A stretch of 64,000 bases of DNA from an uncultured bacterium (GTDB taxonomy: Bacteria > Babelota > Babeliae > Babelales > Babelaceae), in contig CAVRKK010000002.1 in NCBI GenBank assembly GCA_963722385.1, positions 96,001-160,000 on the forward strand, written 5' to 3'. Position 1 is the stretch's first letter. Each line of letters starts with the position of its first letter. Under the pieces are notes generated by a model that made no database searches, had not been told where the DNA came from, and worked only from the letters and a program-made list of their open reading frames with translations. The position numbers and the translations under genes were made by a program. This document shows positions 22,797 through 64,000 of the stretch, piece by piece.

Positions 22797-23276
22797 GCTT
22801 ACGCAGCGAGCGCGCCTGTGCGGCGAGCACACCTACGCGGTGGGCGGCATGGCGGCGGCCCTGCACCCATTGATTTTATGCTTCACTCTACTTGCTATAT
22901 CTTTTATCTCTTCTCGTCATAACCATGCGGGGCGCATGATTATGACAACCGCAATTTTCCTGACGGAAAATAGATTTTTATCATGGAGCTGAGCGACATG
23001 ATAATGGCGTTAGTTATCGTACGCTTTGGCGGACGATAACTACTCACCAAGCTTATAAGCATTAAGCATATTGCAACGGGATCCCAAAGGACATAGCGAT
23101 GCGGAGTAGCGCAACGCTTGTCCGTAGCAGCTTTTTGTAAAAAAAGCGATCAGCGGAGGCGGGACCCCCTTTGGCGCTCGCCGCGCAGGCGATTCGATTC
23201 AATTCAATTCAATTCGCTCTGCTACGTCAGCCCCGCCCGACTTCGCCGAGGCTAGGCCGGCCAAGCAGCGATTCAA
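22797..23276 (-). repeat. Structured intergenic element, copy A (with nested REP-like modules)
   Basis: Colinear with 28659-29004 (inverted) and 30269-30675. Inverted termini 22813-22830 / 23174-23191. Serial hairpins. Strand inferred from G.U pairs. Confidence 0.9.
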
Positions 23277-23324
23277 AGCTTGTGCTATAATAAGTCTAGG
23301 TATTAACCCAACAGGAGAAACATC

Positions 23325-24041
23325 ATGCTACGATCACTGGCCGAATCATGGAAAGCCTCGATGGCCTCATTTCAGCGGCCGAATGCCCGTTACTTTTTTT
23401 TAGAATCCCTTAACGCAACCTGGGGCATATATAAAGCCTGCATATTCGGCGCCTTGTGGTTGATCGCGCTTATTATTTTGTCGTTTAAGTTTCAGCTCGG
23501 TGCCATAGGCTTGCTCCATACCATGCTCTTTTTCGTAGCCCTTTGCTCAGCACGCTCCTCTATCGGTATAAAGAATTCCACTTATTTTTTTGAAAAAATC
23601 GCTCACTACTTTTTAATCTACTGGCTTATGACGTACTTCGTCATGCAAGGCTTTATTATGGCCACTCCCTGGCTCTTACAAGCTGGAGGAGAAGTGCTCA
23701 AGCAAGCAGTCCTCATTAACTGCTCGATTTTTCTGACTCTCGCTGGCCTCTGCTTGATTGATTCGGGATTCTGGCTTAAGTCGATGCTCGAGTCCCCCCT
23801 GCGCGCACTGCGCCTGCTCGTCTATAACTACCCAGCTTTTATATGCTTGGAATTATTGAGGACAGCTGCAGGATTTTTGGTGCTCCGCGCCACATCTACG
23901 CTCATTGATACCAATGCAATCGGCTTTTTTTGGTCCAGTATGATTGATTTAGCAGCGTGGTTTGTGTATGTTCCTTTTTATATCGCGCTTGTTGCCACTC
24001 TTTATATAAGGCGAATCTATGAGCAAGGAAAATATTATTAA
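23325..24041 (+). CDS. Multi-pass membrane protein
   Basis: AGGAG RBS; about 6 hydrophobic segments; overlaps the plsC start. Confidence 0.8.
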   Translation: MLRSLAESWKASMASFQRPNARYFFLESLNATWGIYKACIFGALWLIALIILSFKFQLGAIGLLHTMLFFVALCSARSSIGIKNSTYFFEKIAHYFLIYWLMTYFVMQGFIMATPWLLQAGGEVLKQAVLINCSIFLTLAGLCLIDSGFWLKSMLESPLRALRLLVYNYPAFICLELLRTAAGFLVLRATSTLIDTNAIGFFWSSMIDLAAWFVYVPFYIALVATLYIRRIYEQGKYY

Positions 24042-24807
24042 GCAACTTTTGCTCATTGCGCGCTGCTTACTGGGGTATGTACTCATCGGGATCATTGGGC
24101 TCATTTTTTTTACGCCATGCCTGGTGCTTGTCTGCCTGCCCCCTCGCTATCGTTACGCTAACCGCCTTTTATTTTGGCTACTCAATAAAGCATATAAGGG
24201 AGTTTGCGCTTCTTTGATGATGCCCATTACGGTACAGGGCAGAGAGCACCTACCCATTAAGCCAGCCCTCTTTGTAGCAAATCATCAATCAGCGCTTGAT
24301 ATACCGCTCTTGGGGATGCTGATGAACGGCCACCCCCACCTCTGGTATGTTCTAGCCTATTATAAAGATACCTTCATCCTTGGGTTCTTCGTAAGGCGGC
24401 TGGGGATTTTTATCGACCCCAAAAACCCGCCCGATATCGCTAAATCGCTCTTACGCGGCATGCGCATCGTCAAACAAGCAGGCTCCCACACCATCGTTTT
24501 TCCCGAGGGCGCTCGTTTCATTGATGGATACGTCCATCCCTTCTTGCCTGGCTTTAGCCTGATCGCCCGCAAGTTAGCACAACCGGTAATACCAGTTTTC
24601 CTCCATAACGCGGGCGCTGTCTACCCACCCGGAGCCTTCTTAGCACACCCCCATCCTCTATCTGTTATCATAGGACCGTCATTTCATTTTTTAGAAACTG
24701 ATACGCTTGAGAGCTTTACGGGCCGAGTACACGCTTGGTTTGATGCCCAGCAACAAAAAATGGGGCGGGATGCTTACGCAAGCACACTACATCAATCTCC
24801 GCCGTAG
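24019..24807 (+). CDS. plsC: 1-acyl-sn-glycerol-3-phosphate acyltransferase
   Basis: NHQSALD (HxxxxD) and FPEG motifs. Confidence 0.9.
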   Translation: MSKENIIKQLLLIARCLLGYVLIGIIGLIFFTPCLVLVCLPPRYRYANRLLFWLLNKAYKGVCASLMMPITVQGREHLPIKPALFVANHQSALDIPLLGMLMNGHPHLWYVLAYYKDTFILGFFVRRLGIFIDPKNPPDIAKSLLRGMRIVKQAGSHTIVFPEGARFIDGYVHPFLPGFSLIARKLAQPVIPVFLHNAGAVYPPGAFLAHPHPLSVIIGPSFHFLETDTLESFTGRVHAWFDAQQQKMGRDAYASTLHQSPP

Positions 24808-24985
24808 CGAACGGTTAATTACTTTTAATGTGAAAAATTTGCTGGCCTTGCAGTTGCAAAGCTCTCTTCGCTTCGGAATCGGCGAGTTGCCCACATATTG
24901 GATCGCCCATACGAGTAATGCAATAGCGATATATCAGTTTAATGGCGTCGTTTGATTCCTTTCATGTAGTTAAGATGAGCAACTA

Positions 24986-25408
24986 TTATACTTCTTGATT
25001 TTTAATCAACCTATTAAAAATTTTATGCATCATCATACTGTAAGATGAAATATGTTGCATGATCACCTCGGCAACTTCTTCATGATAGCTATGTGAAGCC
25101 TGATTGCGATCGGCCACACAAGCTATAAGCAAGTCGAATTCATTTTTATTAATTAATCCTTCGTTAAGTGAAGTACGTAAAATTTCACGAGGCGTACCAT
25201 ATTCAACAGTAATATTTGCTATTTTTTTAAGATATGCTTTTAGAAATTTTCAGAAAGCATCGATGCTGTATTCGAAACGTTGAATTGCTGAATCTCTTAA
25301 GGTTTTATATATTTCTTGGTAGCATTGGCTATTTATAAGCTCCAAAGCCTCATTAAGTGTTGCTAAAGCTTGATTAAGAGTTTTTGTTTTTATAGCTAAT
25401 TCTTCCAC
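24986..25408 (-). pseudogene. HEPN toxin (HI0074 / nucleotidyltransferase substrate-binding family) with one in-frame TGA
   Basis: Manual translation: MEELA...RDSAIQRFEYSIDAF*KFLKAYL...DRNQASHSY...; TGA at 25250-25252 (codon 53); overlaps the MNT stop. Confidence 0.9.
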
Positions 25409-25710
25409 AACGTTCCTTCCTGCACAATCGACTCCCTCATGGCGTCAGGCGCTTTGCGAAAATCAACAATTTGTACCTTATAAGGTATATTGGTAGCCTC
25501 AAGTACGCTTTTCGCTTCGTCTACAACAACGGTAGGCAACGCTTGGCCTGCATCAAGCGCAAGATCTATATCAGACCACTGTTCATGCGTCCCCCGTGCT
25601 CTTGACCCGAACAAATAAATTTTAGCTTCTGGCACTAAAGCATGAATCAACATAATAATTTTTTGCCTGGTTTCTCGATCTATACCTTCTGTACCATTAA
25701 CACTTTTCAT
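25396..25710 (-). CDS. Minimal nucleotidyltransferase (MNT) antitoxin
   Basis: YLFGSRARG...SDIDLA motif, 104 aa. Confidence 0.92.
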   Translation of the reverse strand: MKSVNGTEGIDRETRQKIIMLIHALVPEAKIYLFGSRARGTHEQWSDIDLALDAGQALPTVVVDEAKSVLEATNIPYKVQIVDFRKAPDAMRESIVQEGTLWKN

Positions 25711-25847
25711 AAATTACCCTCTTGCAAAACCGCTATTCTATGAGCATCTTAAGACAAGTTCACTCTTTTCCAAGCAATAAGCAGCTTATCTTTAACGCAT
25801 CTATATTACCATAAATACGTCAGCATAAGATCTTAGTAATTTCTAAA

Positions 25848-26075
25848 TTATCGCTTTTTAAAGATTTTTAAACAAAAGAGCAGAAACAGTAACGCGAAAA
25901 CGGGAAAAGGGATACAGAAAGGCGCCAAGAAGAAGGCAACCGCAATTCCCGGTATAAGGCTTAAGGCTGCCAGCACGGCAACTACCAACCAGATGCCGAG
26001 CGCCAGGATCGAGCCCATTATCATACAGAGAAAACAAAAAAAGATTATAAGTAATAGAGGCAAAGAAAAAATCAT
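25848..26075 (-). CDS. Small, highly hydrophobic membrane protein
   Basis: 75-aa hydrophobic ORF ending KKR; CAGGA RBS-like sequence upstream. Confidence 0.5.
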   Translation of the reverse strand: MIFSLPLLLIIFFCFLCMIMGSILALGIWLVVAVLAALSLIPGIAVAFFLAPFCIPFPVFALLFLLFCLKIFKKR

Positions 26076-26212
26076 AGAGAGAGAATTCCTGCTATCGATT
26101 GCGCATTTTAATCATATCACAAATAAATTTTTAGTCCACAAGAAAGATGTACTTATTCTTGAAATTTCATGTATCCTTAAATCCTATAACGATTTGGCAA
26201 ACGGCGTAACCC

Positions 26213-28627
26213 ATGAAATTTATCAAATACTTTTCTGATATTACCCATACGGATACCGGCTTAGTCGGTGGTAAAAATGCTGCGTTAGGCTTTATGATAC
26301 GGCATGGTCTCGGGCACGGCATACGGGTACCTTTTGGTTTTGCAGTTACCACCGAGGCGTATTGGCACTTTATGCACGAAAACAACCTTTTAGCAGAGAT
26401 TGGGAACCTATTAAAAAAACTAAATATCAACGACGTCGCTCACGTGCACGAGATTGGCTCTGCAATACGGGCTTCAATTCTTGCAGCATCTCTACCCCAA
26501 ATTATAAGCACGGAAATATTAACGGCGTACGCTGAACTCAGCACCCAGTACGGCCAACAAGCATGTGATGTTGCCGTACGCTCATCGGCTAATGCGGAAG
26601 ATCTGCCTGAAGCCTCATTTGCAGGACAGCAGTCAACATTCCTTGGCGTTCGCACCCAACAAGGGCTCTTGGACGCATGCAAGCAATGTATAGCATCCCT
26701 TTTTAGCGACCGGGCACTCGTTTACCGCTCAAAGCACCATTTTGATCATCTGAGCAGCGCGCTTGCCATTGGTGTCCAAAAAATGGTGCGGTCAGACCTC
26801 GCAACTTCCGGCGTGGCCTTTTCGTTAGAAACAGAATCGGGCTCGCCGCAACTTATCACTATTTCAGCGGCATATGGTCTTGGCGAGCTCGTGGTGAACG
26901 GCTCCGTAACGCCTGACGAATTTTACGTGCATAAGGATCGACTTTTACAAGGCTTTAAACCAATTGTGCGCAAAATGCTGGGCACCAAACATGAAAAGCT
27001 TATTTACACAGCAATGCGTACTGAGCGCATATCAGTTGCCGAAGAAGATCAGCAAAAATTTTCACTCGTCGACAAGCAGGTTCTTGAAATTGCCCATACC
27101 GTGATGGTGCTCGAAGAGCTCTATGCCGCGATTTACCAACGCTCAACGCCTATCGATGTTGAGTGGGCGTACGACAGTGACGGCATACTTTATATACTGC
27201 AAGTACGTCCTGAAACGGTGCACAGCCAAAAAACAAGAAAGACACAACTCGTCCAGTACAGGCTTGAGCCGAGCGTGACCTGCCCGATTCTTGCACAGGG
27301 GCAGAGCGTTGGCCAAAAGATTACGCAGGGCAGAGCTCGTATTTTGAAAGATTTGCGCGATGCAGCGTCATTTCGCCCCGGCGATATTCTCGTGACTCCG
27401 ATGACTGACCCGGACTGGATGCCCATTCTTAAGCAAGCGGCGGGTATTATTACCGATCGTGGAGGCAGAACGTGTCACGCCGCGATCGTAAGCCGGGAGC
27501 TCGGTATACCGGCGTTAGTGGGTGCCCATACCGCTACGCAGACGATATCTGAGGGTCAAGAAATAACTCTTGATTGTAGCCATACCAGTCATGGTTATGC
27601 CTATCATGGCATGGTGCCCTATCACAAGTCGGTAGCTGATTTGGATGTATCGTGGGCGCTGCCAACGCAGCTTATGATTAACCTTGCCGACCCGGGACAA
27701 GCGTGCGAGTTTTCACGGTTGCCGACAGCCGGCGTTGGGCTTGCTCGCCTTGAGTTTATTATTGCCCACATAATTAAGGTGCATCCTTTAGCTATTGCAA
27801 AGCCATGGCTCGTTCCGGAGAGTGTGCGCGCCGAGATAGCTGTTCTTGCCCGTGGCTACGAAAGCCCCGAGGCTTTTTTTGTTGACAGCCTAGCTCAGGC
27901 AGTAGGGCTTATTGCAGGTGCCTTTTATCCTCGCCCGGTTATTGTCAGGCTCACTGATTTTAAGAGCAATGAATATAGCCAGTTGATCGGCGGTTCTTAT
28001 TTTGAACTGCGTGAAGAAAACCCCATGCTTGGTTTTCGAGGGGCGGCACGGTATGCGAGCTCCACGTATAGTGCTGCCTTTGAGCTTGAGTGTCGCGCGC
28101 TTAAAAAGGCTCGTGAGGAGATGGGCTTTGACACGATTATCGTTATGGTTCCCTTTGTTAGGACCGTTAAAGAAGCAGAAACGGTGCGCAACGTGCTTGC
28201 CAAGCATGGTCTTAAGCAAGGCGAGCAAAATCTGAAGCTTTACATGATGGTAGAGGTGCCTTCTAATGTGCTCTTGATTGAGCAGTTTGCTGAAATTTTT
28301 GATGGGTTTTCAATAGGCTCGAATGATCTAACGCAGCTCACGCTTGGGGTTGACCGTGATTCGGGGGTTTTAGCGAGCTCGTTTAACGAGCGTGATCCTG
28401 CAGTCACAAAGTTGCTATTAATGGCCATCGCTGGTGCTCGCCGGGCGCAGCGGCCCATTGGTATTTGCGGGCAAGCACCTTCAGATTTTCCCGAGCTTGC
28501 AGCGTTGCTCATCGATGCGGGCATTACGTCGCTATCGCTCAGCCCCGATGCTCTGGTACCATTTATACAAAACTACCAGTACGCTGGCGTTAAGTTGGGT
28601 AGCACCGTGGTTGACAATATCGGGTAA
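26213..28627 (+). CDS. ppsA: Phosphoenolpyruvate synthase
   Basis: VGGKNA, AVRSSA.AEDL..ASFAGQ, GGRTCHAAI, SIGSNDLTQ and ICGQAP. Confidence 0.97.
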   Translation: MKFIKYFSDITHTDTGLVGGKNAALGFMIRHGLGHGIRVPFGFAVTTEAYWHFMHENNLLAEIGNLLKKLNINDVAHVHEIGSAIRASILAASLPQIISTEILTAYAELSTQYGQQACDVAVRSSANAEDLPEASFAGQQSTFLGVRTQQGLLDACKQCIASLFSDRALVYRSKHHFDHLSSALAIGVQKMVRSDLATSGVAFSLETESGSPQLITISAAYGLGELVVNGSVTPDEFYVHKDRLLQGFKPIVRKMLGTKHEKLIYTAMRTERISVAEEDQQKFSLVDKQVLEIAHTVMVLEELYAAIYQRSTPIDVEWAYDSDGILYILQVRPETVHSQKTRKTQLVQYRLEPSVTCPILAQGQSVGQKITQGRARILKDLRDAASFRPGDILVTPMTDPDWMPILKQAAGIITDRGGRTCHAAIVSRELGIPALVGAHTATQTISEGQEITLDCSHTSHGYAYHGMVPYHKSVADLDVSWALPTQLMINLADPGQACEFSRLPTAGVGLARLEFIIAHIIKVHPLAIAKPWLVPESVRAEIAVLARGYESPEAFFVDSLAQAVGLIAGAFYPRPVIVRLTDFKSNEYSQLIGGSYFELREENPMLGFRGAARYASSTYSAAFELECRALKKAREEMGFDTIIVMVPFVRTVKEAETVRNVLAKHGLKQGEQNLKLYMMVEVPSNVLLIEQFAEIFDGFSIGSNDLTQLTLGVDRDSGVLASSFNERDPAVTKLLLMAIAGARRAQRPIGICGQAPSDFPELAALLIDAGITSLSLSPDALVPFIQNYQYAGVKLGSTVVDNIG

Positions 28628-28658
28628 ACACGCTACATTATGCCAGGAATTTGAGTGT

Positions 28659-29004
28659 GAATTCAATTGAATCGAATTGAATCGCCTGCGCGGCTGGCGG
28701 TTAAGGGACATCGTCCCTTAACAATCCCGATGCAATATGCTTATAAGCTTGGTGAGTAGTTGTCGTCCGCAAAAGCGTACGACAACTAATGCCATTATCA
28801 TGTGCGCTGCGCTCCATGATAAAAACATATCTTCCGTGAGAAAGATTGCGGTAGCTCTAAGCATGCGCGGCGCATGGTTATAGCATTCACACGAGTTACA
28901 AAATATAGCATACAGTAAGAAATAAAATCAATGGGTGCAGGGCCGCCGCCATGCCGCCCACTGCGTAAGTGTGCTCGCCGCATAGGCGCGCCTGCTGCGC
29001 AAGC
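28659..29004 (+). repeat. Structured intergenic element, copy B
   Basis: Near-identical reverse complement of the core of copy C. Termini cgcctgcgcggc (28683) and gccgcataggcg (ending 28988). Confidence 0.9.
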
Positions 29005-29020
29005 ACCGGAGGAAACAAGA

Positions 29021-29725
29021 ATGCTTAAAAAAACTTTACTTACCCTCGCGATTATTACTCATATACCTGCTTACGGGCAACAGCTTTATACTGAATCTGA
29101 ATGCGAATCCTTAAGCAGCTACGTGCTTGATGCCATCAAAAAAAATCATGCAGCCGTGGTTAAAGACCTTACGTCTCATTTACTAAAATGCTCGAAACTT
29201 GACCGCTTAAAGCGCGGCGTAGATTTCATAGATACTAATGCGGGACTTCTTGCTGCTTACGTTCTTGCAACTATCGGCGCAAACTTAGACAATGCCCTCC
29301 CGGCTGCAATATACTGGCACAATATACCGACCGCAAAATACCTGCTTGAAAATGGCGCCTGTGTTAACGGCTTAATTGACGTAGCTCCTGATATGTCCCC
29401 AGAGGAGCTGATCCCGCTCATGCATTACGCTATTCAGAAGGGCTATAGCGAAGAAGTTGAACTGTTAGTGCGTTACGGGTATGACCTGAATAGCTTTTTT
29501 GGGGATATGACGCCGCTTATGACTGCAGCATGGTATGGCCAAAACGACATCGTGAAAATTCTACTCGAACGCGGGGCTGACGCGCGAATACGCAATAAGG
29601 ACGAGTACACCGCCCTGGATTATGCCTTTAGATGGCCAAGCGCCTTAGGCTGGTCATGCCTTAACCCAGCTACTCTTAGATTACTCGAGCAAGCAACTGC
29701 CAACCAAGAGGGCTGTCGTTTTTAA
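29021..29725 (+). CDS. Secreted ankyrin-repeat protein
   Basis: GGAGG RBS; MLKK signal peptide; TPLMTAAWYG and GADARIRNKDEYTALDYA. Confidence 0.9.
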   Translation: MLKKTLLTLAIITHIPAYGQQLYTESECESLSSYVLDAIKKNHAAVVKDLTSHLLKCSKLDRLKRGVDFIDTNAGLLAAYVLATIGANLDNALPAAIYWHNIPTAKYLLENGACVNGLIDVAPDMSPEELIPLMHYAIQKGYSEEVELLVRYGYDLNSFFGDMTPLMTAAWYGQNDIVKILLERGADARIRNKDEYTALDYAFRWPSALGWSCLNPATLRLLEQATANQEGCRF

Positions 29726-29934
29726 GAATATTCTGTTGGCTTACGATAATGGCTACAACGCGAGCAGGCGCCAAATTCTGATTGCGGATAAGGCTCACAA
29801 GGGCACGAACAATCAATACTGCGTAAAAGCCCCCAGTAACCCCGCTGCCTCGTATCCATGCAACCAGGACTAGCCTCAGCTTTACTCATTGCCATTAGTA
29901 AGGCTGCCATCCCGATTATTTGTATTATCTTCAT
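29722..29934 (-). CDS. Small secreted Cys-rich protein
   Basis: GGGG RBS; signal peptide ending AEA; C...CxCxC...CxxCxH pattern. Confidence 0.65.
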   Translation of the reverse strand: MKIIQIIGMAALLMAMSKAEASPGCMDTRQRGYWGLLRSIDCSCPCEPYPQSEFGACSRCSHYRKPTEYS

Positions 29935-30112
29935 CGCTTTCCCCCTCTGTAAGCTTAAAGACACTCGACCTTAACGGGCACTTCAACAAGAATAAAGGCG
30001 GTTTATAAAAGATGGTAAATCGCTGGGGATACGTCCCCGGCCGCGTCACCAAGGTAGGACAGCCCTGGATACCACCAAAAATAACAAGAATCATAATCAT
30101 AATGCGTTTCAT
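29882..30112 (-). CDS. Small hypothetical secreted protein
   Basis: MKRIMIMILVIFGGIQGC signal-like start; overlaps the next gene. Confidence 0.4.
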   Translation of the reverse strand: MKRIMIMILVIFGGIQGCPTLVTRPGTYPQRFTIFYKPPLFLLKCPLRSSVFKLTEGESDEDNTNNRDGSLTNGNE

Positions 30113-30268
30113 AAAGCCCCTTGTCCCATTATGCCCTGTGATCATCTTAATTGATTGCTGTTCAAATATGCAATAATATTGTTAGACTGAATTAATAATT
30201 AATTACTTATTGCGTTTATTGAACATGTGCTTGAAATGGCCATAAATTTTGCACGTGCTCCTACGCAG

Positions 30269-30675
30269 CCGACTTCGCCAAGACCACGACGGGAACGCTT
30301 ACGCAGCGGGCGGCATGGTCGCGGCGGCCCTGCACCCATTGATTTTATTTCTTGCTGTATATGCTCATTTTTGTAACTTGTGTGAATGCTCTAACCATGC
30401 GCGACGCATGCTTAGAGCTACCGCAATCTTCCTCACGGAAGATATGATTTTATCATGGAGCTTAGCGACATGATAATGGCATTAGTTGTCGTACGCTTTT
30501 GCGGACGACAACTACTCACCAAGCTTATAAGCATATTGCATCGGGATTGTTAAGGGACGATGTCCCTTAACCGCCAGCCGCGCAGGCGATTCGATTCAAT
30601 TCAATTCGCTCTGCTACGTCAGTCCGCGCCCGACTTCGCCGCGGCTACGTCGGCCAAGCAGGCGATTCAATTCGC
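30269..30675 (-). repeat. Structured intergenic element, copy C (REP-like units at both ends)
   Basis: Colinear with copy A. One terminal repeat is lost by a deletion between short direct repeats. Confidence 0.9.
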
Positions 30676-30753
30676 CAAGTTGCCCAAATCCACACGCGAA
30701 GTTCCTACCACTTGGTTTTAAGCACATTTTGGTGTATAATTATAATTATATAA

Positions 30754-33201
<2,448 letters not shown>

Positions 33202-33207
33202 AACATT

Positions 33208-46541: not shown

Positions 46542-46730
46542 AGCAGCTCAATCTCGCAATTATTAGATTTCGTAATAGAATATCGACTATTTTAGTTTGC
46601 CATATTATTTAAAATAGGCAAATAAATTTCAGATTTTTTAAACTTTTAAATTCTGAAACTGTAATTTTAATAAATTTAAAGAAGGCAGAAGCTGGTCATG
46701 GCCACGTGGCCGATATGTAGTAAGCAAGGT

Positions 46731-47196
46731 AAATAAATAGAATAGAATAATATCCGCCTACGCGGCGAGCGGCTAAGGGACATCCCGCCTCCGCTGATCG
46801 CTTTTTTTACAAAAAGCTGCTGCGGACATAGCGATGCGCTACTACGCATCGCTATGTCCGCAGCAATCCTGATGCAACATGCTTAATGCCTATAAGCTCG
46901 GTGAGTAGTTATCGTAGGCTTTGCGTGCGATAACTTATGCCATTTATCAGGTACGCAGCGCCATGAGCAGATAATGCGCCCTGCTCATCGGATAAGAGGC
47001 GAAGTAATAATGGTTTACTTGGGGGTAGCGAGCGAGGATATTAATTGCCAAAGTCTAATTGAAATCGCTTCAACATAACTTATCATATAAAATAACTAAC
47101 TATTTTTTTGAATAACTTATGAAGGGAATGCGCCTACGCGGCGGCCGCCGCCCTGCCGCTCGACGCGCAGTCGCGCCCGCCGCGTAGGCGCCCGCT
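46731..47196 (+). repeat. Structured intergenic element, copy D (diverged)
   Basis: Termini 46755-46770 / 47175-47190 (15/16 complementary). Shares caatcc.gatgcaa...tataagct.ggtgagtagttatcgt with the other copies and shares the nested insert of copy A. Confidence 0.85.
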
Positions 47197-51835: not shown

Positions 51836-51873
51836 CAAAAAAATCAGCCTTAAGCTTAAGGCTGATTTTTTTG
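51836..51873. repeat. Perfect 38-bp loopless palindrome
   Basis: caaaaaaatcagccttaag|cttaaggctgatttttttg spanning the stop codon of 51856-52080. Confidence 0.9.
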
Positions 51874-52080: not shown

Positions 52081-52274
52081 AATCAAATCCCATATTTCAT
52101 TGGTTATTGCATGTTTACAAAATTAATTCTAGTTAATTTAAAAATATATGTCAAGTCGAATAAGTCTTCTCGAGGGAAAAACAACCCTTATATCGCTCTA
52201 TTTCACAAAAAATCTCTGTTTTGAAGCAATTTTCAAAAAGAACTTAAGTGCAATACATGCACATCGATCTTACG

Positions 52275-55205: not shown

Positions 55206-55441
55206 AGCCTAAAACCTCATAGAGCCTACCAAAAACCTCGCCCATAACCTGTCGCGCAAGCTAAAAAGCATCAAGCACAACATCATTATAAGTATACGTC
55301 GTATAGGCCACTTTGTGAATCTATATAGATTTCTATTAATAGAGTATTATTTTTTATTACAAGAACAATTTATTGCAATTTTAGTTTGCAATGTGATAGC
55401 TTTATTTTATTAAATCTTAATCTAAAAAAAAGGAATATGTT

Positions 55442-55891
55442 ATGGCTTTGCTCAGAAAACACATATTTGAGAGCCCTGAGGAACTTTTTGAGGATCTTCA
55501 CCTTGCTGTTTCCTCCCAGGGCGATTTTGCAACCGATATCTATCAGGACAAAAACTCAGTTATCGTAAAAATGCACGCTCCGGGAATCGACAAAGACACT
55601 ATTGATATAACGGTCGACGAAGACCGCTTGACCATCGCGGCTTCACGTGAGACAAAAGAGGAAATGAAAGGCAAAAATTTCTTCAGGCGAGAAATACGGT
55701 ACGGAAGCTTTATGCGCACATTATCGTTGCCTTGCGCTGTTGAAAAAGACCAGGCAGTTGCTGAATATGACGACGGGGTGCTCACCATTACGTTGCCCAA
55801 GAAAAAAAGCGCTGAGCCGAGCAAGATTAAAGTAACCTCGAAAAGCGCATCAACAAACCAAACTACGGTTACACCGCCACGAGGCGCTTGA
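55442..55891 (+). CDS. Hsp20 / alpha-crystallin small heat-shock protein
   Basis: PGIDK, E..YGSF.R...LP and AEYDDGVLTITLPK. Confidence 0.95.
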   Translation: MALLRKHIFESPEELFEDLHLAVSSQGDFATDIYQDKNSVIVKMHAPGIDKDTIDITVDEDRLTIAASRETKEEMKGKNFFRREIRYGSFMRTLSLPCAVEKDQAVAEYDDGVLTITLPKKKSAEPSKIKVTSKSASTNQTTVTPPRGA

Positions 55892-57077
55892 TAGTAGGGT
55901 TTATGCGCGTCAGAATCTCATTGTTAATCATACCTGCCTGTAAGGCAAGCTCGTTAACGGTAATGCCAGGCTGATCTCCCATCAACATAACAGCAGAACC
56001 GCGATGAGCTGATGGGATATCGGTCACATCGGCAGTAATAACGTTCATGCTGACTCGGCCGACCAGGGGAGCATGCTTGCCTTCAATAATCAGCGAGGCT
56101 TTTTGCAAGCTGCGCGGATAGCCATCGGCGTACCCCAGAGGTATGCAGGCGATGCGTGAGGGACGGGTGGTAACGAATGTATGCCCGTAACCGATCGGTG
56201 TCCCTGTAGGCACCTCGCGGACATCAACAATACGTGCTTTCCACGCAAGCACAGGATTTAGTTGGATGCTCGCTCCATGGGCAAGAACGCGTTGTTTTTG
56301 GCGCTCAGATTTCCAGAGGCCGTATACATGAGTGCCAAGTCGGCACAGATCGTACTGGTAAGGACCGCGCCCTGACTCGTTAACCAATGAATGGGGAAAT
56401 GCCGTTAAGACGCCTGATGAAAGAGCATGCGTTAGACCAATTGTTATGCCGCTCTTGCACATTTCGTCAAGCACACTATTAAAAACGTCAAGCTGCTCAC
56501 ACATTAACTCCCGGTCACCACTGCTCGCATCCGAGACGTGAGCGCCAATGCCCACGAGCTCGATAGCAGGATACCGAGACAACATAAGTTGAGCGAAACC
56601 AGCTACCGCGTCCGGTGGTATGCCCCGGCGCGAAAGCCCGATGTCAACCTTAAGGTGAACACGCGCCTTCGATTGCATACTTGCGGCCGCGCTTTGTAAT
56701 TCGCTAAGAATATCCTTATCATCAACCATTATGTCGATTTTTTGCTCAATTGCCTCACGGGATACGCCGTCATTATAGGCCATAACGAGAAGATTCTTCC
56801 TGCAGCCATCGGCCCGCAATGAGAGAGCTTCATCAATGCTGGCGGTGCAGAGCCACGAGACGGCAGGCTCGTTTTCGAGGAGGGAGGCAATGAGTCGCAT
56901 ATCGTGACCATATGCGTTACTTTTGACAACAACGCCAAGCTGTCCTGGGCCTTGGAGATGCTTAAGTTGCTCAATGTTAGCAAGCAGAGCTGATTGACTG
57001 ATTTCTATCCATGTTGGTAACATATTTGACGGGGCTAGAAAATGGGTAAGGGATGGTTGTATGCCAACCATCCCCAT
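55869..57077 (-). CDS. alr: Alanine racemase (start may be 57023)
   Basis: VVKSNAYGH, VHLKVDIG, IGYG, GYADG and GRVSMN. Confidence 0.93.
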   Translation of the reverse strand: MGMVGIQPSLTHFLAPSNMLPTWIEISQSALLANIEQLKHLQGPGQLGVVVKSNAYGHDMRLIASLLENEPAVSWLCTASIDEALSLRADGCRKNLLVMAYNDGVSREAIEQKIDIMVDDKDILSELQSAAASMQSKARVHLKVDIGLSRRGIPPDAVAGFAQLMLSRYPAIELVGIGAHVSDASSGDRELMCEQLDVFNSVLDEMCKSGITIGLTHALSSGVLTAFPHSLVNESGRGPYQYDLCRLGTHVYGLWKSERQKQRVLAHGASIQLNPVLAWKARIVDVREVPTGTPIGYGHTFVTTRPSRIACIPLGYADGYPRSLQKASLIIEGKHAPLVGRVSMNVITADVTDIPSAHRGSAVMLMGDQPGITVNELALQAGMINNEILTRINPTIKRLVAV

Positions 57078-57083
57078 GATAGC

Positions 57084-57728
57084 TTACTTGAGTGGTAATG
57101 CGCGTTTTGTCTGTCGGGAGCCGAGTTTCAATGTCAGCGTGCCATTTTTGTACTCAGGCTGAGTGGTCGAGATGGCGACGCGATAGGGAAATGACTTCAC
57201 GTAATCATTACGAGCAACGTAGCTTGAGCTGCTGAGAATGGTGCCTTTTTCATCCTTCTTTTCATGGATGATCTTCTTCTCAACTTCAAGTGCCAGCGCT
57301 GTTGGGAATATACGCATCAGAACCTTACTTTCCTGATATGGGAACGTAATATCAGCGTATCCTTCGTCTTCGTCGATTTCGATCTTGATATCCTCTTTTT
57401 TTGCCGTTAGATCTTTAACCTCAAGCACTAAAGATCGGCCATCTTTATTCGGGTTAATGGCGACCTCGGGAATCTTCACCGCCTGATTGTCAAAGACAGG
57501 AAACTCTTCTTTAGCACCAACCATAGGCCTCTCAAAGGCCATATTAAAGCGATGCCACATGTCATCAAATGATTGCGCAATGCTCTTAAAAGCGTTCCTC
57601 CTACAGTGGCCACATCTCACTTCTTCTTTGGCTTTTTGCTCCGCCGCACCAACTGCATTAAAGCCAGCTAATGATGCGAGTGCAAATGGCACCAAAACCA
57701 ATAGGGTTTTCTTCATGAGTTTGTTCAT
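57084..57728 (-). CDS. Signal-peptide protein with Hsp20-like C-terminal domain
   Basis: AAGGAG RBS; signal peptide; KEDIKIEID and PEYKNGTLTLKL. Confidence 0.7.
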   Translation of the reverse strand: MNKLMKKTLLVLVPFALASLAGFNAVGAAEQKAKEEVRCGHCRRNAFKSIAQSFDDMWHRFNMAFERPMVGAKEEFPVFDNQAVKIPEVAINPNKDGRSLVLEVKDLTAKKEDIKIEIDEDEGYADITFPYQESKVLMRIFPTALALEVEKKIIHEKKDEKGTILSSSSYVARNDYVKSFPYRVAISTTQPEYKNGTLTLKLGSRQTKRALPLK

Positions 57729-57888
57729 AAGAGAGACTCCTTAGTTATCTCGTTTACTAGAACCAAGTCCTTCTCTAGCTTAAGCAAAATCAGAAATTTT
57801 TCAACCCGGCACGATTGAGTTCTCATATCTTTGCTTAGCTCGTGAGTATCTTTTTTGGTATAATATAAAAAGTTCTTAAAGAGAAAAA

Positions 57889-58183
57889 ATGAGAAATAAA
57901 TATCTTGGACCAAGCTTTGATTCTTTTTTGAAGAAGAAGGCATTTTGGAAGAGGTAACACTCGGTGCCATAAAGAAAGTTATTGCTTGTGCCCTCATTGA
58001 AGCCATGAAAAAAGAAAATATTACAAAAACGGAGCTAGCTAACAAGCTTGGCACCAGCAGAGCTGCGTTACAGCGCCTGCTGGATCCTCTACCTTGCTCA
58101 CTCTGCATAAAGCCGCTCAAATAGCCGGTAAGCAATTGGAAATTACGTTATCTGGGCCAGGCAGTCTTAATAATAAGAGGTAA
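57889..58183 (+). pseudogene. XRE/HTH antitoxin-like gene, frameshifted and internally deleted
   Basis: MRNKYLGPSFDSFL|EEEGILEEV...ITKTELANKLGTSRAALQRLLDP|TLLTLHKAAQIAGKQLEI spread over three frames. Confidence 0.8.
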
Positions 58184-58243
58184 TTTTCAGAATTTTATAG
58201 GACTGCTAACTATCTCTTAATCACCCTTAATTTGAAATGAAAA

Positions 58244-58974
58244 ATGAATATAAATAAAAATGAGCGAATAATCTTAGCATCTCAATCGAAAATTCGAAAA
58301 CGCGCTCTGGAAATTTTAGGAATATCTTATGAATGCATTCCGGCAAATATTGACGAAAAAGCTATGCGGGATGCAAATCCAATAACGATGGCAATAATGA
58401 TTTCTGAGGCTAAAGCCCATGCAGTTAGCAGCAAAGAAGATGGTATTATTATCGCTTCTGATGCATTTTGGTTTTTGATGAAAAAATTCTCGAAAAACCT
58501 AACTCTTTAGGTGAGGCATATAAAATGCTCAAAGCTCTTTCAGGCAATAAACATACGTTTATCACGGGACTGGCTGTTTACGATTCGCAAACAGGCAAAA
58601 TGCGTTCTAGAGCTTCTACCTGCAACATATATTTTCGATCCCTCTCTGATGATGAGATTAAGGATTATTGTAACCGGTACCCAGTTCTTACATTTGCTGG
58701 TTCACTTGAAATAGATGGGGTCATTAGGTTTTCCGAAAAAATCGAAGGTAATTGTAATTTTGTAACTGCAATGCCTCTGCAGCACTTGGTTCAGTTTTTA
58801 CGAGAAATAGAGCAGGATAGGGAAGAGCGTTTTCACTTGATGTTCTTTAGAGGAAGGTCTTCAAAACAAAGCTTACCTCTCACTAACCGCACTAAAGCAA
58901 GCGACCATAAACATTCAGGCTTAAAATCGTGTGCCAATCTACGATTCGCACACGATTTAACAATTAATCGCTAA
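58244..58974 (+). pseudogene. maf: Maf-family nucleotide pyrophosphatase, frameshifted
   Basis: IILASQS..R, IDEK, AKA, IIASD | ILEKP...A..ML..LSG..H; shift near 58470. Confidence 0.85.
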
Positions 58975-59032
58975 TCAAGCGGCAGCTTCGGCTTCTGGGG
59001 CTCTTTTAAGCGAGAAACTTTTGCAGGTTACC

Positions 59033-59572
59033 TCAGAGCCTCTTTTTTATGTCTTGATAATCTTTATCTACTATTTTTTTGCGGTCTTCAAGAAAATCCA
59101 AGGCGGTCCAGCCTCGGGGGTCTTTCATGGAAGGATCAGCACCGGCATCAAGAAGTAATGCTATCGTGCGCCTATTTAATCGCCAAGCAGCGGCCATAAG
59201 AGGCGTCAATCCATCAGCATCTGCATTCGGGTTAGCACCCGCTTTTAGCAATTTCTCCACGACAACAGGGTGCTTATGCCAGCTAGCAGCAAAGAGCGGC
59301 GTGCCGCCGCTATCATCAGCAAGGTTAACGTTGGCACCCGAATCTATTAAGTATTGGACGAGATGCCAATCACCATTAGACGCCGCAACAATTAATGGCG
59401 TCCAACCAAAAAGGGGGCTTTTCTCATCAACATCGATTACTTTTTTCTCAAACACCTCTTTTGTTAAAGCTAGAGGCATTCCTTCGCGAGGACTAAATTT
59501 GAAATCCCTTGCTTGAGCAAGCTCAGCACCTATCACCATGACAATGCTCAAAATTTTTAACGATTTATACAT
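59033..59572 (-). CDS. Secreted ankyrin-repeat protein
   Basis: GWTPLIVAA, GGTPLFAA, GLTPLMAAA and GWTALD. Confidence 0.93.
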   Translation of the reverse strand: MYKSLKILSIVMVIGAELAQARDFKFSPREGMPLALTKEVFEKKVIDVDEKSPLFGWTPLIVAASNGDWHLVQYLIDSGANVNLADDSGGTPLFAASWHKHPVVVEKLLKAGANPNADADGLTPLMAAAWRLNRRTIALLLDAGADPSMKDPRGWTALDFLEDRKKIVDKDYQDIKKRL

Positions 59573-59716
59573 TTTATCTCCTTTTTGTTTTATATCGTAT
59601 TAGCATTATAGTCAATTTTTTTCAGGAAAAGCAAGAGTCCAAGGTGATTTCCTTGGTAGATTAAGATCATCAAGAGCGCTTCAAGTCGCGAAATTCTACG
59701 ATGAAAAAACTTACTA

Positions 59717-59745
59717 TTGACTATAGTGACATTTAGTGTCACTAT
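59717..59745 (+). promoter_or_regulatory. Palindromic operator in the hicAB promoter
   Basis: atagtgaca-tttag-tgtcactat immediately after TTGACT (-35-like). Confidence 0.7.
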
Positions 59746-59805
59746 TAAAAAAGATCCTGCTTCATTATCACTCAACGGCAAGAAAGGCGGTAGGAATGGA
59801 GCTAC

Positions 59806-60057
59806 ATGAACAATAAACATAAAAAGACAATTGATGCGATTTTCACGCTTCCTCCTTCTGCTAATATAAAATGGGATGATATTGAATCACTTTTTATACA
59901 TCTTGGCGCCGATGTCATCGAAGCAGCAGGCTCTCGAGTTTGTATCGTGCTAAACGGAAAGCGGTCCGTTTTTCATAGACCTCATCCAAAACGTGAAGCA
60001 GGCAAGGGAATGGTAAAGTCTGTACGCATTTTTTTGAATAATGCAGGAGTAATATAA
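59806..60057 (+). CDS. hicA: HicA toxin
   Basis: IKWDDIESL, GSRV and FHRPHP. Confidence 0.93.
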   Translation: MNNKHKKTIDAIFTLPPSANIKWDDIESLFIHLGADVIEAAGSRVCIVLNGKRSVFHRPHPKREAGKGMVKSVRIFLNNAGVI

Positions 60058-60059
60058 AG

Positions 60060-60371
60060 ATGAAGTATAAAGGATATATAGGCCACGTTACCTATGATGA
60101 CGAGCTCAAAATCTTACACGGAGACGTAATCGGCTTAAAAGACGTGATCACTTTTGAGGGAACGAGTGTTGAAGAAGTAGAAAATGCATTTCGTGATTCC
60201 ATTGACGTGTACTTAGATCTCTGCAAAAAACGGGGCGAAAAACCAGAAAAAACATTTTCAGGAGATTTGCGCGTCAGAATTGCCCCTGACTTACATGCAC
60301 GCCTTACACAAGAAGCTGCGATGAGTGGACTTAGCCTTAATTCGTTCATTGCTGAAAAGTTAAGAAAGTAA
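60060..60371 (+). CDS. hicB: HicB antitoxin
   Basis: MKYKGY, DVITFEG, PEKTFSG...RI.P.LH and SLN (RHH domain). Confidence 0.93.
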   Translation: MKYKGYIGHVTYDDELKILHGDVIGLKDVITFEGTSVEEVENAFRDSIDVYLDLCKKRGEKPEKTFSGDLRVRIAPDLHARLTQEAAMSGLSLNSFIAEKLRK

Positions 60372-60454
60372 ATGGCGTACCAGAAGGGGTATCAGCCAAG
60401 AAAATCCGTAAAACGTACCTTTATTAAGTATTGGACGAGATACCAATCACCATT
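60371..60454 (-). pseudogene. Remnant of an ankyrin paralogue of 59033-59572
   Basis: 60422-60454 matches 59345-59377 at 32/33 nt (NGDWYLVQYLI). Confidence 0.75.
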
Positions 60455-60757
60455 GCCTTGTAGTGGTGATATTTAAATCATTCCAGGCGATTATTCGAAT
60501 TCAATATATACGAGCAAGTCGCAGGCCTTCTGGTTCGAGGTTGAACGATGCGAGGGCAGGTCGATAAATTTTTTTTATCGCAAGCCATACATCAATAAAC
60601 GAAGTCTTAGAACGGCTTCTTAAACATTTGAGAAAAAAATCTGCGTTATATTGGCTTTTATCCACAGAGATCTTCTCTCGTAAATTTCGAAGGACATATT
60701 TCGCTTTTGCGAACTACCTAAAAATTTTACAAATATCAATCCGTTAAAAAGTATAGC

Positions 60758-60785
60758 AGCCCCTAGCATTCAGTGCTAGGGGCTT
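60758..60785. terminator. Hairpin terminator
   Basis: agcccctagca-ttcag-tgctaggggct downstream of 60826-61215. Confidence 0.65.
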
Positions 60786-60825
60786 TATAGCCTCTGATGG
60801 CTTTTTTATAAGCCTCTCTATTGTT

Positions 60826-61215
60826 TTATTTTACAGGTCGAATTTGAGTACCGTCGTAAATTAGATTTTCACATCCTGTTTCTTGTGAAGATTCTACACC
60901 TCTAAGCATATAATAAACTACCTTTGGGCTAGAAATTATGATTTCAGCTTGCTCGTTTATAGCCATTGGGCCTGACAGTGAATTTGTTTGCCCTGGCTCA
61001 ATAAAAAAGCTTCCTGTTAAATGTTCTCCTCCTGCTCTACCTACTTGAATTGAGCCGGCGACTCTTTCGTGAGTATCATTGAGCAATACCACGCAATAAT
61101 TTTTCCATTCATGATGGGGGGCATATTCACCGCCAAATTGATTGAAAAGGGCATTGGTTGATATAAGTAAGCCTGCTAAGACAAAACTTTGTAAAAATGA
61201 ATTATTAAATTTCAT
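60826..61215 (-). CDS. Secreted hypothetical protein
   Basis: AAGGAG RBS and signal peptide. Confidence 0.75.
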   Translation of the reverse strand: MKFNNSFLQSFVLAGLLISTNALFNQFGGEYAPHHEWKNYCVVLLNDTHERVAGSIQVGRAGGEHLTGSFFIEPGQTNSLSGPMAINEQAEIIISSPKVVYYMLRGVESSQETGCENLIYDGTQIRPVK

Positions 61216-61396
61216 GGTATACTCCTTTGTATGGTTTAAAAAATATTTAAAAAAAGATTATAAAATACTTATAGCTTATTTTTTCAATAAAAGTCAGCAC
61301 TTTTGATCCCTTGGCCTATGGTGCCAGCGGCAGGTATACTTGCGTAAGCACCATCAAGGCTATTGGAGTAAGTATACCGTACCTGAAGGAAAATTT

Positions 61397-62731
61397 ATGC
61401 GAAGCGCTGTAATCAGTCCCGTCAAGCTCATAATATTCTTGCTCTTAGATTTTAGCACTCTGTATGGCACTTCATCAAGCGTTAAGGCTTTGATAGAAGC
61501 AGTGCGTGAAGGTAATCTAAATAAAATTAAAAAACTTGTTAATAAAAGTAATCGCGTAAATGAAAGAGATGCTACTGGCTATACCCCTTTGGGAGCTGCA
61601 GTTGCCAATGGCGACAATGATATAGTTGCTTACCTTTTAAGTAAAGGAGCATCACCTGATAAAGAGACAGCGGCTTATATCTCACAGCCTGAGGTGCCAG
61701 ATTCCGTTATAATAACATATTCGCTTATTATAGCGGCAAGTACCGCAAATGATAAAGCTGTATCGCTCTTATTATCTTATGATGCTGATCCAAATATCAT
61801 GAGTAAAATGGCGGTAGTTCCTGGTCATGAAAAGACAGGTGGTGTACGCTATACTCCTCTTATGTTTGCGGCTATTCATTGTAAACGCTCTATGGCTCAC
61901 GTACTTATTAAAGCTGGAGCTCGTGTTGATGCTCAGGATTATAAGTGGAGAACTGCCTTGCATTGGGTAGCAGAAAATAACTGCCTTCCCATTGCTCAAG
62001 ATATTCTCAAGAAGGACCCGAGAACCAGTACGGCTGTAAGTTGGTCTATGACACGTAAAAAAGGGAAGATCCCCTATGAAATTGCACAAGAATGGAGCAA
62101 TAAAGAGATGATGATGCTCTTGTATCCTTATTTAAAAGCTAGTCTTTTAGTGCAAGCCGTACAAATAGGTGATCTTGATAAGGTAAGAGCGTTTATCCAA
62201 AAAGGTGGTAATCTCGATTGGGTTGATAGTGATGGTAATACGGCCCTGGGAGCAGCAATTATTGCTGGGCACAATACTATAGTAGCTGAGCTGCTCCAAG
62301 CTGGAGCTTCACCAGATGTGCCAACAGCTATTTCATATGGATCAAGCGATCGACAACCACCGCTTTTTCTCGCAATACAGCATTCTAATGAAGAAGCCCT
62401 AGCATTATTATTAGACTACCATGCAAAGGTAAATATGATACCGCCAACGAGCTCCACCCCATTAGGCGAAGCTGCTGTTTATTGCAAAACAAGTATGGCT
62501 AAAAGACTTCTGGCAGCTGGCGCTAACCCCGCCGAGGGCGATTATTGGCAAACAAATGCATTACATCAAGCAATTGGCCATAACTGCATCGCCGTTGCAT
62601 ACATAATTCTCGATTTTAAAGCTTCTCTCATGTATGTTCGAGACAGTTTCAAGCGAAGACCATTAGATCTCGTGCAGAGCGACGAGATGAAATTATTATT
62701 AGATTCTTATAGAAAACCGCTTGCTCGTTGA
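61397..62731 (+). CDS. Secreted ankyrin-repeat protein (two duplicated halves)
   Basis: GYTPLGAAV / GNTALGAAI, GASPD twice, DYKWRTALH / DYWQTNALH. Confidence 0.93.
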   Translation: MRSAVISPVKLIIFLLLDFSTLYGTSSSVKALIEAVREGNLNKIKKLVNKSNRVNERDATGYTPLGAAVANGDNDIVAYLLSKGASPDKETAAYISQPEVPDSVIITYSLIIAASTANDKAVSLLLSYDADPNIMSKMAVVPGHEKTGGVRYTPLMFAAIHCKRSMAHVLIKAGARVDAQDYKWRTALHWVAENNCLPIAQDILKKDPRTSTAVSWSMTRKKGKIPYEIAQEWSNKEMMMLLYPYLKASLLVQAVQIGDLDKVRAFIQKGGNLDWVDSDGNTALGAAIIAGHNTIVAELLQAGASPDVPTAISYGSSDRQPPLFLAIQHSNEEALALLLDYHAKVNMIPPTSSTPLGEAAVYCKTSMAKRLLAAGANPAEGDYWQTNALHQAIGHNCIAVAYIILDFKASLMYVRDSFKRRPLDLVQSDEMKLLLDSYRKPLAR

Positions 62732-62750
62732 TAGGCGAGTATAGCCTCGA

Positions 62751-63578
62751 TCATAGAGCGCTATTACTTAGCAGAATACCGATGAGTATTGTCCCTTGGT
62801 TGCTTGCAGAGAAATCTCTTCTGCTATCAACAAAGCGGCTGTCTTCATATGCAAATTTCCTTTTTTCGATTTGCTCATTCGTGAAAGACTTTACAACTCT
62901 AATTCCTGCAAGAGTATCTTCGACTTGTGAATTGATATCTCCAATCCTATCTTTGCTTTTTCTTAAAGCTATGTTCATTCTTTTATTAAAATAAAACGCA
63001 TAAACAATCATGATTGGCAAAAAAAGTATGATGATTAATGTAAGTTTAACATTAATATTTATTAATATAATGAACGCGCCGATAAAATTCAATAATGAAA
63101 TAACAATGTCTTCAGGACCATGGTGATATAATTCGGCAAGCGCCAGCGAATCGTTTGTTAGCCGCGACATTAACTGACCTATTTTCTGTTCATCATAAAA
63201 ATTAAATGATAATTTTTGATAATGATCAAATAACTCACTCCGCATATCTCTTTCCATGAGGGCGCCCATGACATGACCCCGATATGAAACAAACACATTA
63301 CATATTGTATGCACTATAACTAATGCAAACAATATAGCGCTCATTGCATATATTTGATTGAGCGCATCAGGCATATTTCCTGCTAATATATTTTTGGTTA
63401 TGTAGCTTATACATAATGGCAATGCCAATGTGGTTGCCGATAAAATGAATGCACATCCCATATCTGTAAAAAACAACCCTAAATAAGGTTTGTAATAGGA
63501 TGAAAATTTCTTTATTCGATAATATCGAGTAGGATACTTAGTCATTTTTTGAACAATCAATCTATAAGCGTTTAGCAA
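62751..63578 (-). pseudogene. ABC exporter transmembrane domain, truncated (no nucleotide-binding domain)
   Basis: HYQKLSFNFYD...GQLMSRLTND and GIRVVKSFTNE; the ORF ends before the last TMs and the ATPase domain. Confidence 0.8.
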
Positions 63579-63829
63579 TTTGGAAAAAAATTTATTTTGA
63601 TAAAATTTTAGCCTTACTGATTACAATGTCAAATCGGCTACACCATACTGACTGATCCAATCGCTTCCAGCGGTCGAAGGTTTTTTCACCTATTTCTTTA
63701 ATGATCTGTTGAGCAATTCTTCCCACGACTGAAAGTCATCGGCTTCCTTGCTCCTTTTCTCGTGAATTTAAATCACGATCTGGTAGAAACCCATATACCA
63801 TAAGGGCAAAAAAGAAAGAGGTTATGAAA

Positions 63830-64000
63830 ATTTTTCTCCGGCAGGAGAAATGCTAAAGTGCCTAGCCATGTGCCCCACATGGGTATGGCATTCGTAGGTA
63901 TTGAGCTACAGCAAGATAAAGCACTTAAACAAAAGAACCATTACAATGGGTGCAGGGCCGCTGCCCTGCTGCTCGCCGCATGGGCGCGCCCGCTGCGCAA
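63830..64000 (+). repeat. Structured intergenic element, copy E (diverged 3' half, reaches window end)
   Basis: caatgggtgcagggccgc...gctcgccgcatgggcgcgcc.gctgcgcaa matches the 3' end of copy B. It is preceded by two hairpins in the same order with compensatory changes. Confidence 0.8.

What the first reader, a model, noticed from the sequence alone, without database searches (positions are those of the whole stretch)
22797..64000. Dispersed family of ~350-480 bp non-coding elements with a conserved multi-hairpin fold (5 copies in 64 kb): candidate undescribed mobile structured RNA/ssDNA element
Seen: copies A 22797-23276, B 28659-29004, C 30269-30675, D 46731-47196 and E 63830-64000, in both orientations and all intergenic. 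Read in the orientation of B, the order is: (GAATY)n tail, terminal repeat CGCCTRCGCGGC, GGGAC..GTCC hairpin, CAATCCYGATGCAA, TATAAGCT, long TAGTTRTCGT hairpin, TTATCATG hairpin, tetraloop hairpin, CATGCG hairpin, variable A-rich segment, CAATGGGTGCAGGGCCGC, complementary terminal repeat. The termini pair with each other (A 22813-22830/23174-23191; D 46755-46770/47175-47190). There is no conserved ORF and no transposase or RT in the window. Copies range from near-identical (B versus C) to very diverged (D, E), which implies long-running amplification. Inference: a non-autonomous element mobilised in trans, or a multicopy large ncRNA. It is much longer and more ordered than a classical REP/BIME, and I do not recognise it as a known family.
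Basis: partly seen in the sequence, partly recalled or inferred. Interest (0 to 1): 0.92.

Follow-up and report, generated by a model that had tools for sequence, protein, structure and literature searches.

The report
Mosaic hairpin DNA repeat, replication-linked
The five structured stretches are copies of an uncatalogued mobile DNA repeat built from hairpin modules, not a single RNA gene; its end module also occurs in unrelated bacteria and shares a hairpin with the E. coli sequences that stall DNA copying, and a sister family points one way relative to chromosome replication.

Summary
The repeats are real: 50 loci in this 1.6-Mb genome, 0 in a reversed control, with strongly covarying hairpins and no Rfam match. 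They behave like a gene-less mobile DNA element of the REP/BIME kind. All 12 testable sites are empty in a same-genus genome. Both ends carry the same hairpin module in inverted orientation, with GNNNA loops on opposite strands, and loops flip between copies; this argues against one RNA. The end module recurs in several other phyla, and its first hairpin matches only the two RRS replication-gap elements in E. coli K-12, although RRS does not fit the family model. The same-genus genome has 21 sister copies wrapped in IS5-type ends. Their core lies either way inside that shell, yet points one way relative to GC skew in 19 of 21 (p=2e-4). Here the bias is weak (32 of 50, p=0.065). No mobilising enzyme, target duplication or RNA data was found. 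This scan already noted the family elsewhere in this genome; the cross-phylum module, RRS link, IS5 shell and polarity are added here.

The parts
22788..23276 (-). Copy A: full copy with an 80-nt inserted hairpin module in the left arm and a second repeat module outside the left end
28648..29007 (+). Copy B: full copy, reference orientation ('B strand')
28659..28682 (+). B: (GAATY)n tail outside the left terminus
28683..28728 (-). B: left terminal module, read on the minus strand as GGG + hairpin H1 (28700-28722) + GNNNA-loop hairpin H2 (28683-28694); inverted homologue of the right module
28757..28822 (+). B: two inner hairpins of subfamily 1 (TAGTT hairpin 28757-28788; ATCATG hairpin 28795-28822)
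28829..28884 (+). B: shared core, a GNNA-tetraloop hairpin (28829-28846) and the CATGCG hairpin (28854-28884)
28885..28932 (+). B: unstructured A-rich spacer, variable in sequence, narrow in length (median 49 nt; 30 of 41 copies 44-52 nt; 47% A)
28933..29005 (+). B: right terminal module, GGGTGCAGG hairpin H1 (28933-28954) plus three tandem GNNNA-loop hairpins; this module recurs across phyla
30252..30679 (-). Copy C: full copy, inverted relative to B, upstream of gyrB
46679..47196 (+). Copy D: mosaic copy with left arm and terminal H2 hairpins kept and the shared core replaced
63815..64000 (+). Copy E: right half only (diverged variant), ending about 40 bp beyond the window

Best explanation
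A gene-less mobile DNA repeat of the REP-doublet/BIME type. SHOWN: two inverted, outward-reading terminal modules (a GGGTGCAGG hairpin plus 1-4 GNNNA-loop hairpins) enclose exchangeable inner hairpins and a fixed-length spacer; copies were inserted lineage-specifically at gene junctions and reassort modules. INFERRED: it folds as single-stranded DNA exposed at the replication fork; the terminal module is the handle for a trans-acting enzyme not identified here (an HUH/Y1-type nuclease by analogy; an IS5-type DDE transposase for the shelled sister family in G001); template switching or gene conversion flips loops and cores and homogenises copies. The orientation bias then comes from strand-specific insertion, flipping or survival at the fork.
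For: 50 loci, 0 in the control. 12 of 12 syntenic sites are empty in G001, e.g. a gap of 5 bp against 479 bp here. GNNNA hairpins number 69 on the B strand at the right end, 15 on the opposite strand at the left end and 3 crosswise. 97.8% of cells are paired, with 99 two-sided changes and 27 G-T cells among 1224. Loops appear in both orientations, e.g. CCC/GGG, CCA/TGG, AAAA/TTTT. Left-arm types combine with every right-end type. The same outward doublet occurs in G001, G051, G052 and Binatota genomes. The G001 shell matches the left end of an IS5-type element of this genome at 22 of 25 and 20 of 25 bases. G001 core polarity is 19 of 21.
Against: No partner enzyme was found. The Y1 genes here are IS200-like with unrelated ends; G001 has none; none of 111 ORFs beside the module in other phyla hit a transposase or HUH family. 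No consistent target duplication and ragged ends here. Polarity in this genome is not significant (32 of 50, p=0.065), and 70 module copies in a Binatota chromosome (33 +, 37 -) show no block pattern. Nearest-neighbour energies do not favour the minus strand for the left half (14 of 28), and with RNA parameters they favour the B strand for the right half (23 of 28). A GTGG tag before H1 is present in only 13 of 50 loci.
Confidence: 0.62

Rival explanations
1. RRS-like functional element: the copies are kept or oriented because their folded single strand stalls lagging-strand synthesis and makes programmed gaps, and E. coli RRS is a domesticated member of the same cross-phylum class.
For: The H1 pattern hits only the two RRS copies in E. 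coli K-12, control 0. RRS also carries an H2-like hairpin followed by an AT-rich tail, and inverted ends resembling this element's (read by eye). G001 cores are polarised 19 of 21 while their shells are 13 of 21, and two cores without a mismatch over about 185 aligned bases (one 20-nt and one 1-nt gap) sit in opposite shell orientations. Four-run G motifs occur only on the strand that lies on the G-rich side.
Against: The family model does not detect RRS (best overlap 4.0 bits, E 2.1). The H1-bearing B strand lies mostly on the C-rich strand, opposite to RRS. A four-run G motif occurs in only 3 of 50 and 3 of 21 copies. The core-versus-shell difference is not significant (Fisher p=0.067). Copy positions are not conserved between congeners, whereas RRS position is reported as conserved. 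Polarity is also produced by mobile elements with no host function (PMC3971601, PMC5371416, passages).
Confidence: 0.15
2. A multicopy structured non-coding RNA or mRNA-end element transcribed from the B strand.
For: The right half folds better on the B strand with RNA parameters (23 of 28). It has G..A tetraloops and T-G wobbles on that strand, and a constrained spacer length. One 10/12 promoter-like site lies just upstream of B. Many REPs are thought to act in transcripts (PMC3733652, passages).
Against: No Rfam match in the window or in 20 loci at E up to 5. The left-end loops read on the opposite strand. All four gene-context classes are filled (15, 15, 11, 9 of 50). Most tetraloops have a pyrimidine at position 3, so they are not GNRA. 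Inner sequence is wholly replaced in the congener while the ends are kept. Promoter-like and terminator-like sites are at background level.
Confidence: 0.12
3. A classical MITE moved by a DDE transposase through its own terminal inverted repeats, the hairpins being passengers.
For: True for the G001 sister family: two different IS5-like ends with CTAG/CTAA termini surround the core in 19 of 21 copies with both tails assignable, never two of a kind. This genome holds many IS-size repeats.
Against: Copies in this genome lack that shell; the IS5-end profile hits only the IS itself. Ends are ragged tandem hairpins without a shared duplication. G001 has no tblastn match to the IS5 transposase.
Confidence: 0.11

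Closest known systems
REP / BIME / REPIN doublets with RAYT (TnpA-REP) (PMC6006769, PMC3733652; passages read)
   Same: Intergenic, about 1% of the genome, inverted doublets and tandem clusters of short GC-rich hairpins, structured spacers; dimers nested in outer palindromic shells are described for two species.
   Different: 330-600 bp with up to ten helices; the GTAG/GTGG tag is in a minority of copies; no REPtron found; the end module is shared across phyla rather than being species-specific.
E. coli RRS / TRIP1 replication risk sequences (10.1101/2023.10.01.560376; PMC10287960; PMC13308219; passages read)
   Same: The same GGGTGCAGG hairpin; multi-hairpin, intergenic, a few hundred bp; orientation tied to replication (shown for RRS; 19 of 21 in G001).
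   Different: RRS has two position-conserved copies with a G4 on the lagging template; here there are 21-50 mobile copies, a G4 motif in a minority, and no profile-level match.
IS5-family MITEs (DUF4096 + DDE_Tnp_1 elements; the subgroup label IS427 is recalled)
   Same: The G001 sister family has two imperfect IS5-type ends finishing in CTAG.
   Different: The copies in this genome have no such ends; the G001 core lies in either orientation inside the shell.
IS200/IS605 ends and integron attC sites (PMC3971601, PMC5371416; passages read)
   Same: Folded single-stranded DNA substrates whose orientation tracks the replication fork.
   Different: IS200/IS605 ends are direct, same-strand hairpins around a transposase; attC sites sit in cassette arrays with an integrase. 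Neither arrangement is seen.

Membership tests
REP/BIME/REPIN | Many intergenic copies of short GC-rich hairpins, as inverted doublets or clusters | tested here: met
REP/BIME/REPIN | GTAG or GTGG tetranucleotide 0-2 nt 5' of the hairpin | tested here: inconclusive
   GTGG two bases before H1 in 13 of 50 loci; other variants lack it (definition from PMC6006769)
REP/BIME/REPIN | A RAYT gene flanked by the repeat (REPtron) | tested here: not met
   Y1 genes in this genome, in 40 family genomes and in 5 distant genomes: none of the loci read carries the module within 1.5 kb; G001 has no Y1 match
IS5-family MITE | Terminal inverted repeats matching an IS5-family element | tested here: not met
   Not met for the window's family. 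Met for the G001 sister family: 22 of 25 and 20 of 25 bases
IS5-family MITE | Fixed target-site duplication | tested here: inconclusive
   No shared direct repeat at 50 boundaries; an AT follows many ends and could be part of the repeat; no close-strain empty site available
RRS/TRIP1 | Sequence similarity over the 222-bp element | tested here: not met
   Model R1 gives 4.0 bits, E 2.1; only the H1 hairpin pattern is shared
RRS/TRIP1 | G4-forming motif on the lagging-strand template | tested here: inconclusive
   Four-run motif in 3 of 50 and 3 of 21 copies, all on the B-minus strand; none in the five window copies
RRS/TRIP1 | Conserved pair flanking the terminus region | tested here: not met
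   Dispersed copies; 0 of 12 sites shared with the congener
RRS/TRIP1 | Triggers post-replication single-strand gaps | not testable with these tools
   needs ssGap-seq or primer extension
Known structured RNA (Rfam 15) | Match at the gathering score | tested here: not met
Known structured RNA (Rfam 15) | Discrete transcript | not testable with these tools
   no RNA holder listed

The most novel reading that the evidence does not exclude
These elements belong to an undescribed cross-phylum class of mobile single-stranded-DNA hairpin cassettes that are oriented by the replication fork and can flip inside a transposon shell; the E. coli RRS gap-forming elements are a domesticated member of that class. 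That would give RRS an origin and supply dozens of natural variants for testing programmed gap formation.
Probability: 0.18. Interest if true: 0.85.

Novelty: new variant of a known kind. Interest (0 to 1): 0.55.

Why it matters
As it stands, this is an uncatalogued composite repeat that fills about 1% of a small host-associated genome and splits operon junctions. It shows an invertible hairpin core carried by IS5 ends, and its end module is shared by distant phyla with no known enzyme. The RRS authors state that only two gap-triggering genomic elements are known in bacteria (PMC13308219, passages). A shared hairpin and a replication-polarised sister family make this a ready candidate for their assay, and finding the enzyme would explain a widespread orphan repeat.

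Tried and rejected
Viral contigs: 0 hits with three patterns. A subfamily-specific inner pattern: 0 hits in metagenomes. BLAST of copy B: 2 of 41 genomes including this one, the other a 30-bp hairpin match. In-genome mobilisers: two intact IS200-like genes and broken Y1, GIY-YIG and RT pieces, none flanked by the element. Half-copies flanking a common gene: not seen. Clustering ORFs from 251 module loci gave no recurrent enzyme; Pfam on 111 ORFs drawn from the 81 non-Binatota loci gave none. A hammerhead reading of a CTGATGA motif in subfamily 2 was dropped because the motif is not conserved and no matching GAAA follows (read by eye). Sequencing runs: no RNA holder listed; contigs of 4 of 7 DNA runs showed no joint that skips a whole copy and are uninformative. 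The tree of G001 cores (20 of 21; one half-copy left out) was unresolved, so the number of flips is unknown. Replichore test in a Binatota chromosome: skew too noisy in 20 sampled stretches. Literature searches that found no description of this family. Figures and supplements of the REP and RRS papers were not seen, so the module could be one of the GTAG or TIR families drawn there.

Full report
Observation. The five copies are at the stated coordinates and align as described, with two exceptions: D has lost the shared core, and E is a half-copy in the genome itself. Terminal pairing in A and D is confirmed. An iterated profile finds 50 loci in the 1.6-Mb genome and none in the reversed genome; they cover 16,817 bp. 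With shared extensions the median length is 416 bp and 38 of 50 reach 320 bp. Rfam gives nothing. The phylum label Dependentiae comes from earlier scan notes and was not tested here; the ankyrin-rich gene content fits it.

Anatomy. Two left-arm subfamilies share a core: a tetraloop hairpin, the CATGCG hairpin, an A-rich spacer of narrow length (median 49 nt; 30 of 41 copies 44-52 nt) and a right module of one GGGTGCAGG hairpin (H1) followed by one to four 4-bp hairpins with GNNNA loops (H2). On 35 of the 50 copies, 97.8% of cells pair, 16 of 35 pairs change on both sides, and no shuffle of 500 reaches this. Relatedness inflates such counts, and templated repair of palindromes can mimic covariation. 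The left end is the same module inverted: GNNNA hairpins number 69 on the B strand at the right, 15 on the opposite strand at the left and 3 crosswise. Loops occur in both orientations, and left-arm types combine with every right-end type. This is the anatomy of a DNA doublet. Against that reading, computed energies show no strand preference for the left half (14 of 28), and RNA parameters prefer the B strand for the right half (23 of 28).

Mobility. The same-genus genome G001 shares 643 reciprocal best hits at a median 56% identity. Of 50 sites, 12 could be placed between adjacent orthologues, and all 12 are empty there. Of 22 G001 sites, 7 could be placed, and 1 has a copy somewhere in the same 1.4-kb interval here. 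One junction is 5 bp in G001 and 479 bp here. No shared target duplication is visible. No partner enzyme was found in this genome or beside the module elsewhere.

Relatives. The covariance model hits 4 of 41 family genomes; an exact end pattern hits 3 of 261 phylum genomes. G001 has 21 sister copies with the same ends and layout but different inner hairpins, and G051 and G052 have outward doublets. The end module alone is widespread. The capped scans returned at least 130 stretches in genomes (80 listed; titles include Clostridia, Binataceae, Planctomycetota, Chloroflexota, Acidiferrales, Gammaproteobacteria), at least 121 in metagenomes and 0 in viral contigs. It forms outward doublets in Binatota and tandem arrays in Clostridia.

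The G001 shell. Each G001 core sits between two different 37-40 nt tails ending in CTAG-like sites. A profile of one tail hits a single place in this genome, the left end of a DUF4096/DDE_Tnp_1 insertion sequence; the two tail consensuses match it at 22 and 20 of 25 bases. The core lies one way in 13 copies and the other way in 8; in the 19 copies with both tails assignable they are always one of each kind, and no empty shell was found. Two cores without a mismatch over about 185 aligned bases sit in opposite shell orientations. So an IS5-type composite spread in G001 and its core flipped or was overwritten afterwards (inference). REP dimers inside outer palindromes have precedent (PMC3733652, passages).

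Replication polarity. In G001, 19 of 21 cores have the same orientation relative to the GC-skew halves (p=2e-4). The count is 16 of 18 when copies near the switch points are dropped, and p=0.015 by a breakpoint-free permutation. Gene direction cannot set it, since 16 of the 21 lie between convergent or divergent genes. Shell orientation is 13 of 21 (p=0.38), but the core-shell contrast is only p=0.067. This genome shows the same direction weakly, 32 of 50, p=0.065. A Binatota chromosome shows no block pattern and its skew was too noisy to test. Equating the G-rich strand with the lagging template is general knowledge; dnaA does not sit at the skew minimum in either genome, so the absolute direction is unproven. 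Fork-linked orientation is known for single-strand elements, for some IS5 groups in some chromosomes, and for attC sites (PMC3971601, PMC6006769, PMC5371416; passages).

The RRS lead. A text search for the H1 motif returned the E. coli RRS paper. I read its abstract, passages and the first third of the Results, and passages of two related papers. In E. coli K-12 the H1 hairpin pattern occurs only in the two RRS copies. The closing arm was not part of the text query, so this is more than the search itself would give. But the family model does not recognise RRS, positions are not conserved, a four-run G motif is present in only 3 of 50 and 3 of 21 copies, and the H1-bearing strand mostly lies on the side opposite to RRS. 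It is a shared module and a testable analogy, not membership.

Verdict. A real, uncatalogued composite repeat that most likely works like a REP doublet acting as folded single-stranded DNA (0.62). It is not filed as a REPIN, because no REPtron was found, nor as an RRS. The searches named under Tried and rejected found no description of it; figures and supplements of the REP and RRS papers were not seen. The scan noted this family before elsewhere in this genome. Novelty: new variant of a known kind. Interest 0.55.

Noticed in passing
window 28931-29725 (+): The ankyrin ORF can be extended upstream to an ATG inside copy B's right end, adding about 30 codons from the repeat; a GGAGG site before the ATG near 29021 suggests the real start is outside the repeat.
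   Followed up: partly
window 22788-23276 and 30252-30679; L238; L225: Copies sit directly upstream of topA and gyrB here; a G001 copy lies between uvrA and mutS and a clostridial module between topA and dprA. No enrichment test was run.
   Followed up: no
window 23227-23260 and 30600-30660: A second small repeat (GGCGAAG-centred hairpin, often with a GTAG in front) is attached outside the ends of 13 copies, always on the B strand whether left (4) or right (9).
   Followed up: partly
window 16348-17240: A beta-eliminating lyase gene is split over two overlapping frames (profile positions 1-203 and 199-287): a frameshift or assembly error.
   Followed up: no
G000:C2:228785-230034 and six other places: A 1,249-bp IS-size repeat in 7 near-identical copies; 6 of 7 have the same orientation relative to GC skew. 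Family not determined.
   Followed up: no
G000:C1:332016-332837 / C2:1-819: The end of contig C1 overlaps the start of C2 at 98% identity, so the two contigs are probably adjacent.
   Followed up: partly
G000:C2:22063; G001:C1:1293186: dnaA lies far from the cumulative GC-skew minimum in both genomes, and gene direction shows little strand bias; origin placement in this lineage is unclear.
   Followed up: partly
L520 (G001:C1:157862-157993): G001 holds one shell-less right half of this genome's type, distinct from its own 21-copy family.
   Followed up: partly
L265, L257, L284: A clostridial genome carries 250-400 bp elements of similar plan (hairpin, variable spacer, then up to eight tandem end modules).
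   Followed up: partly
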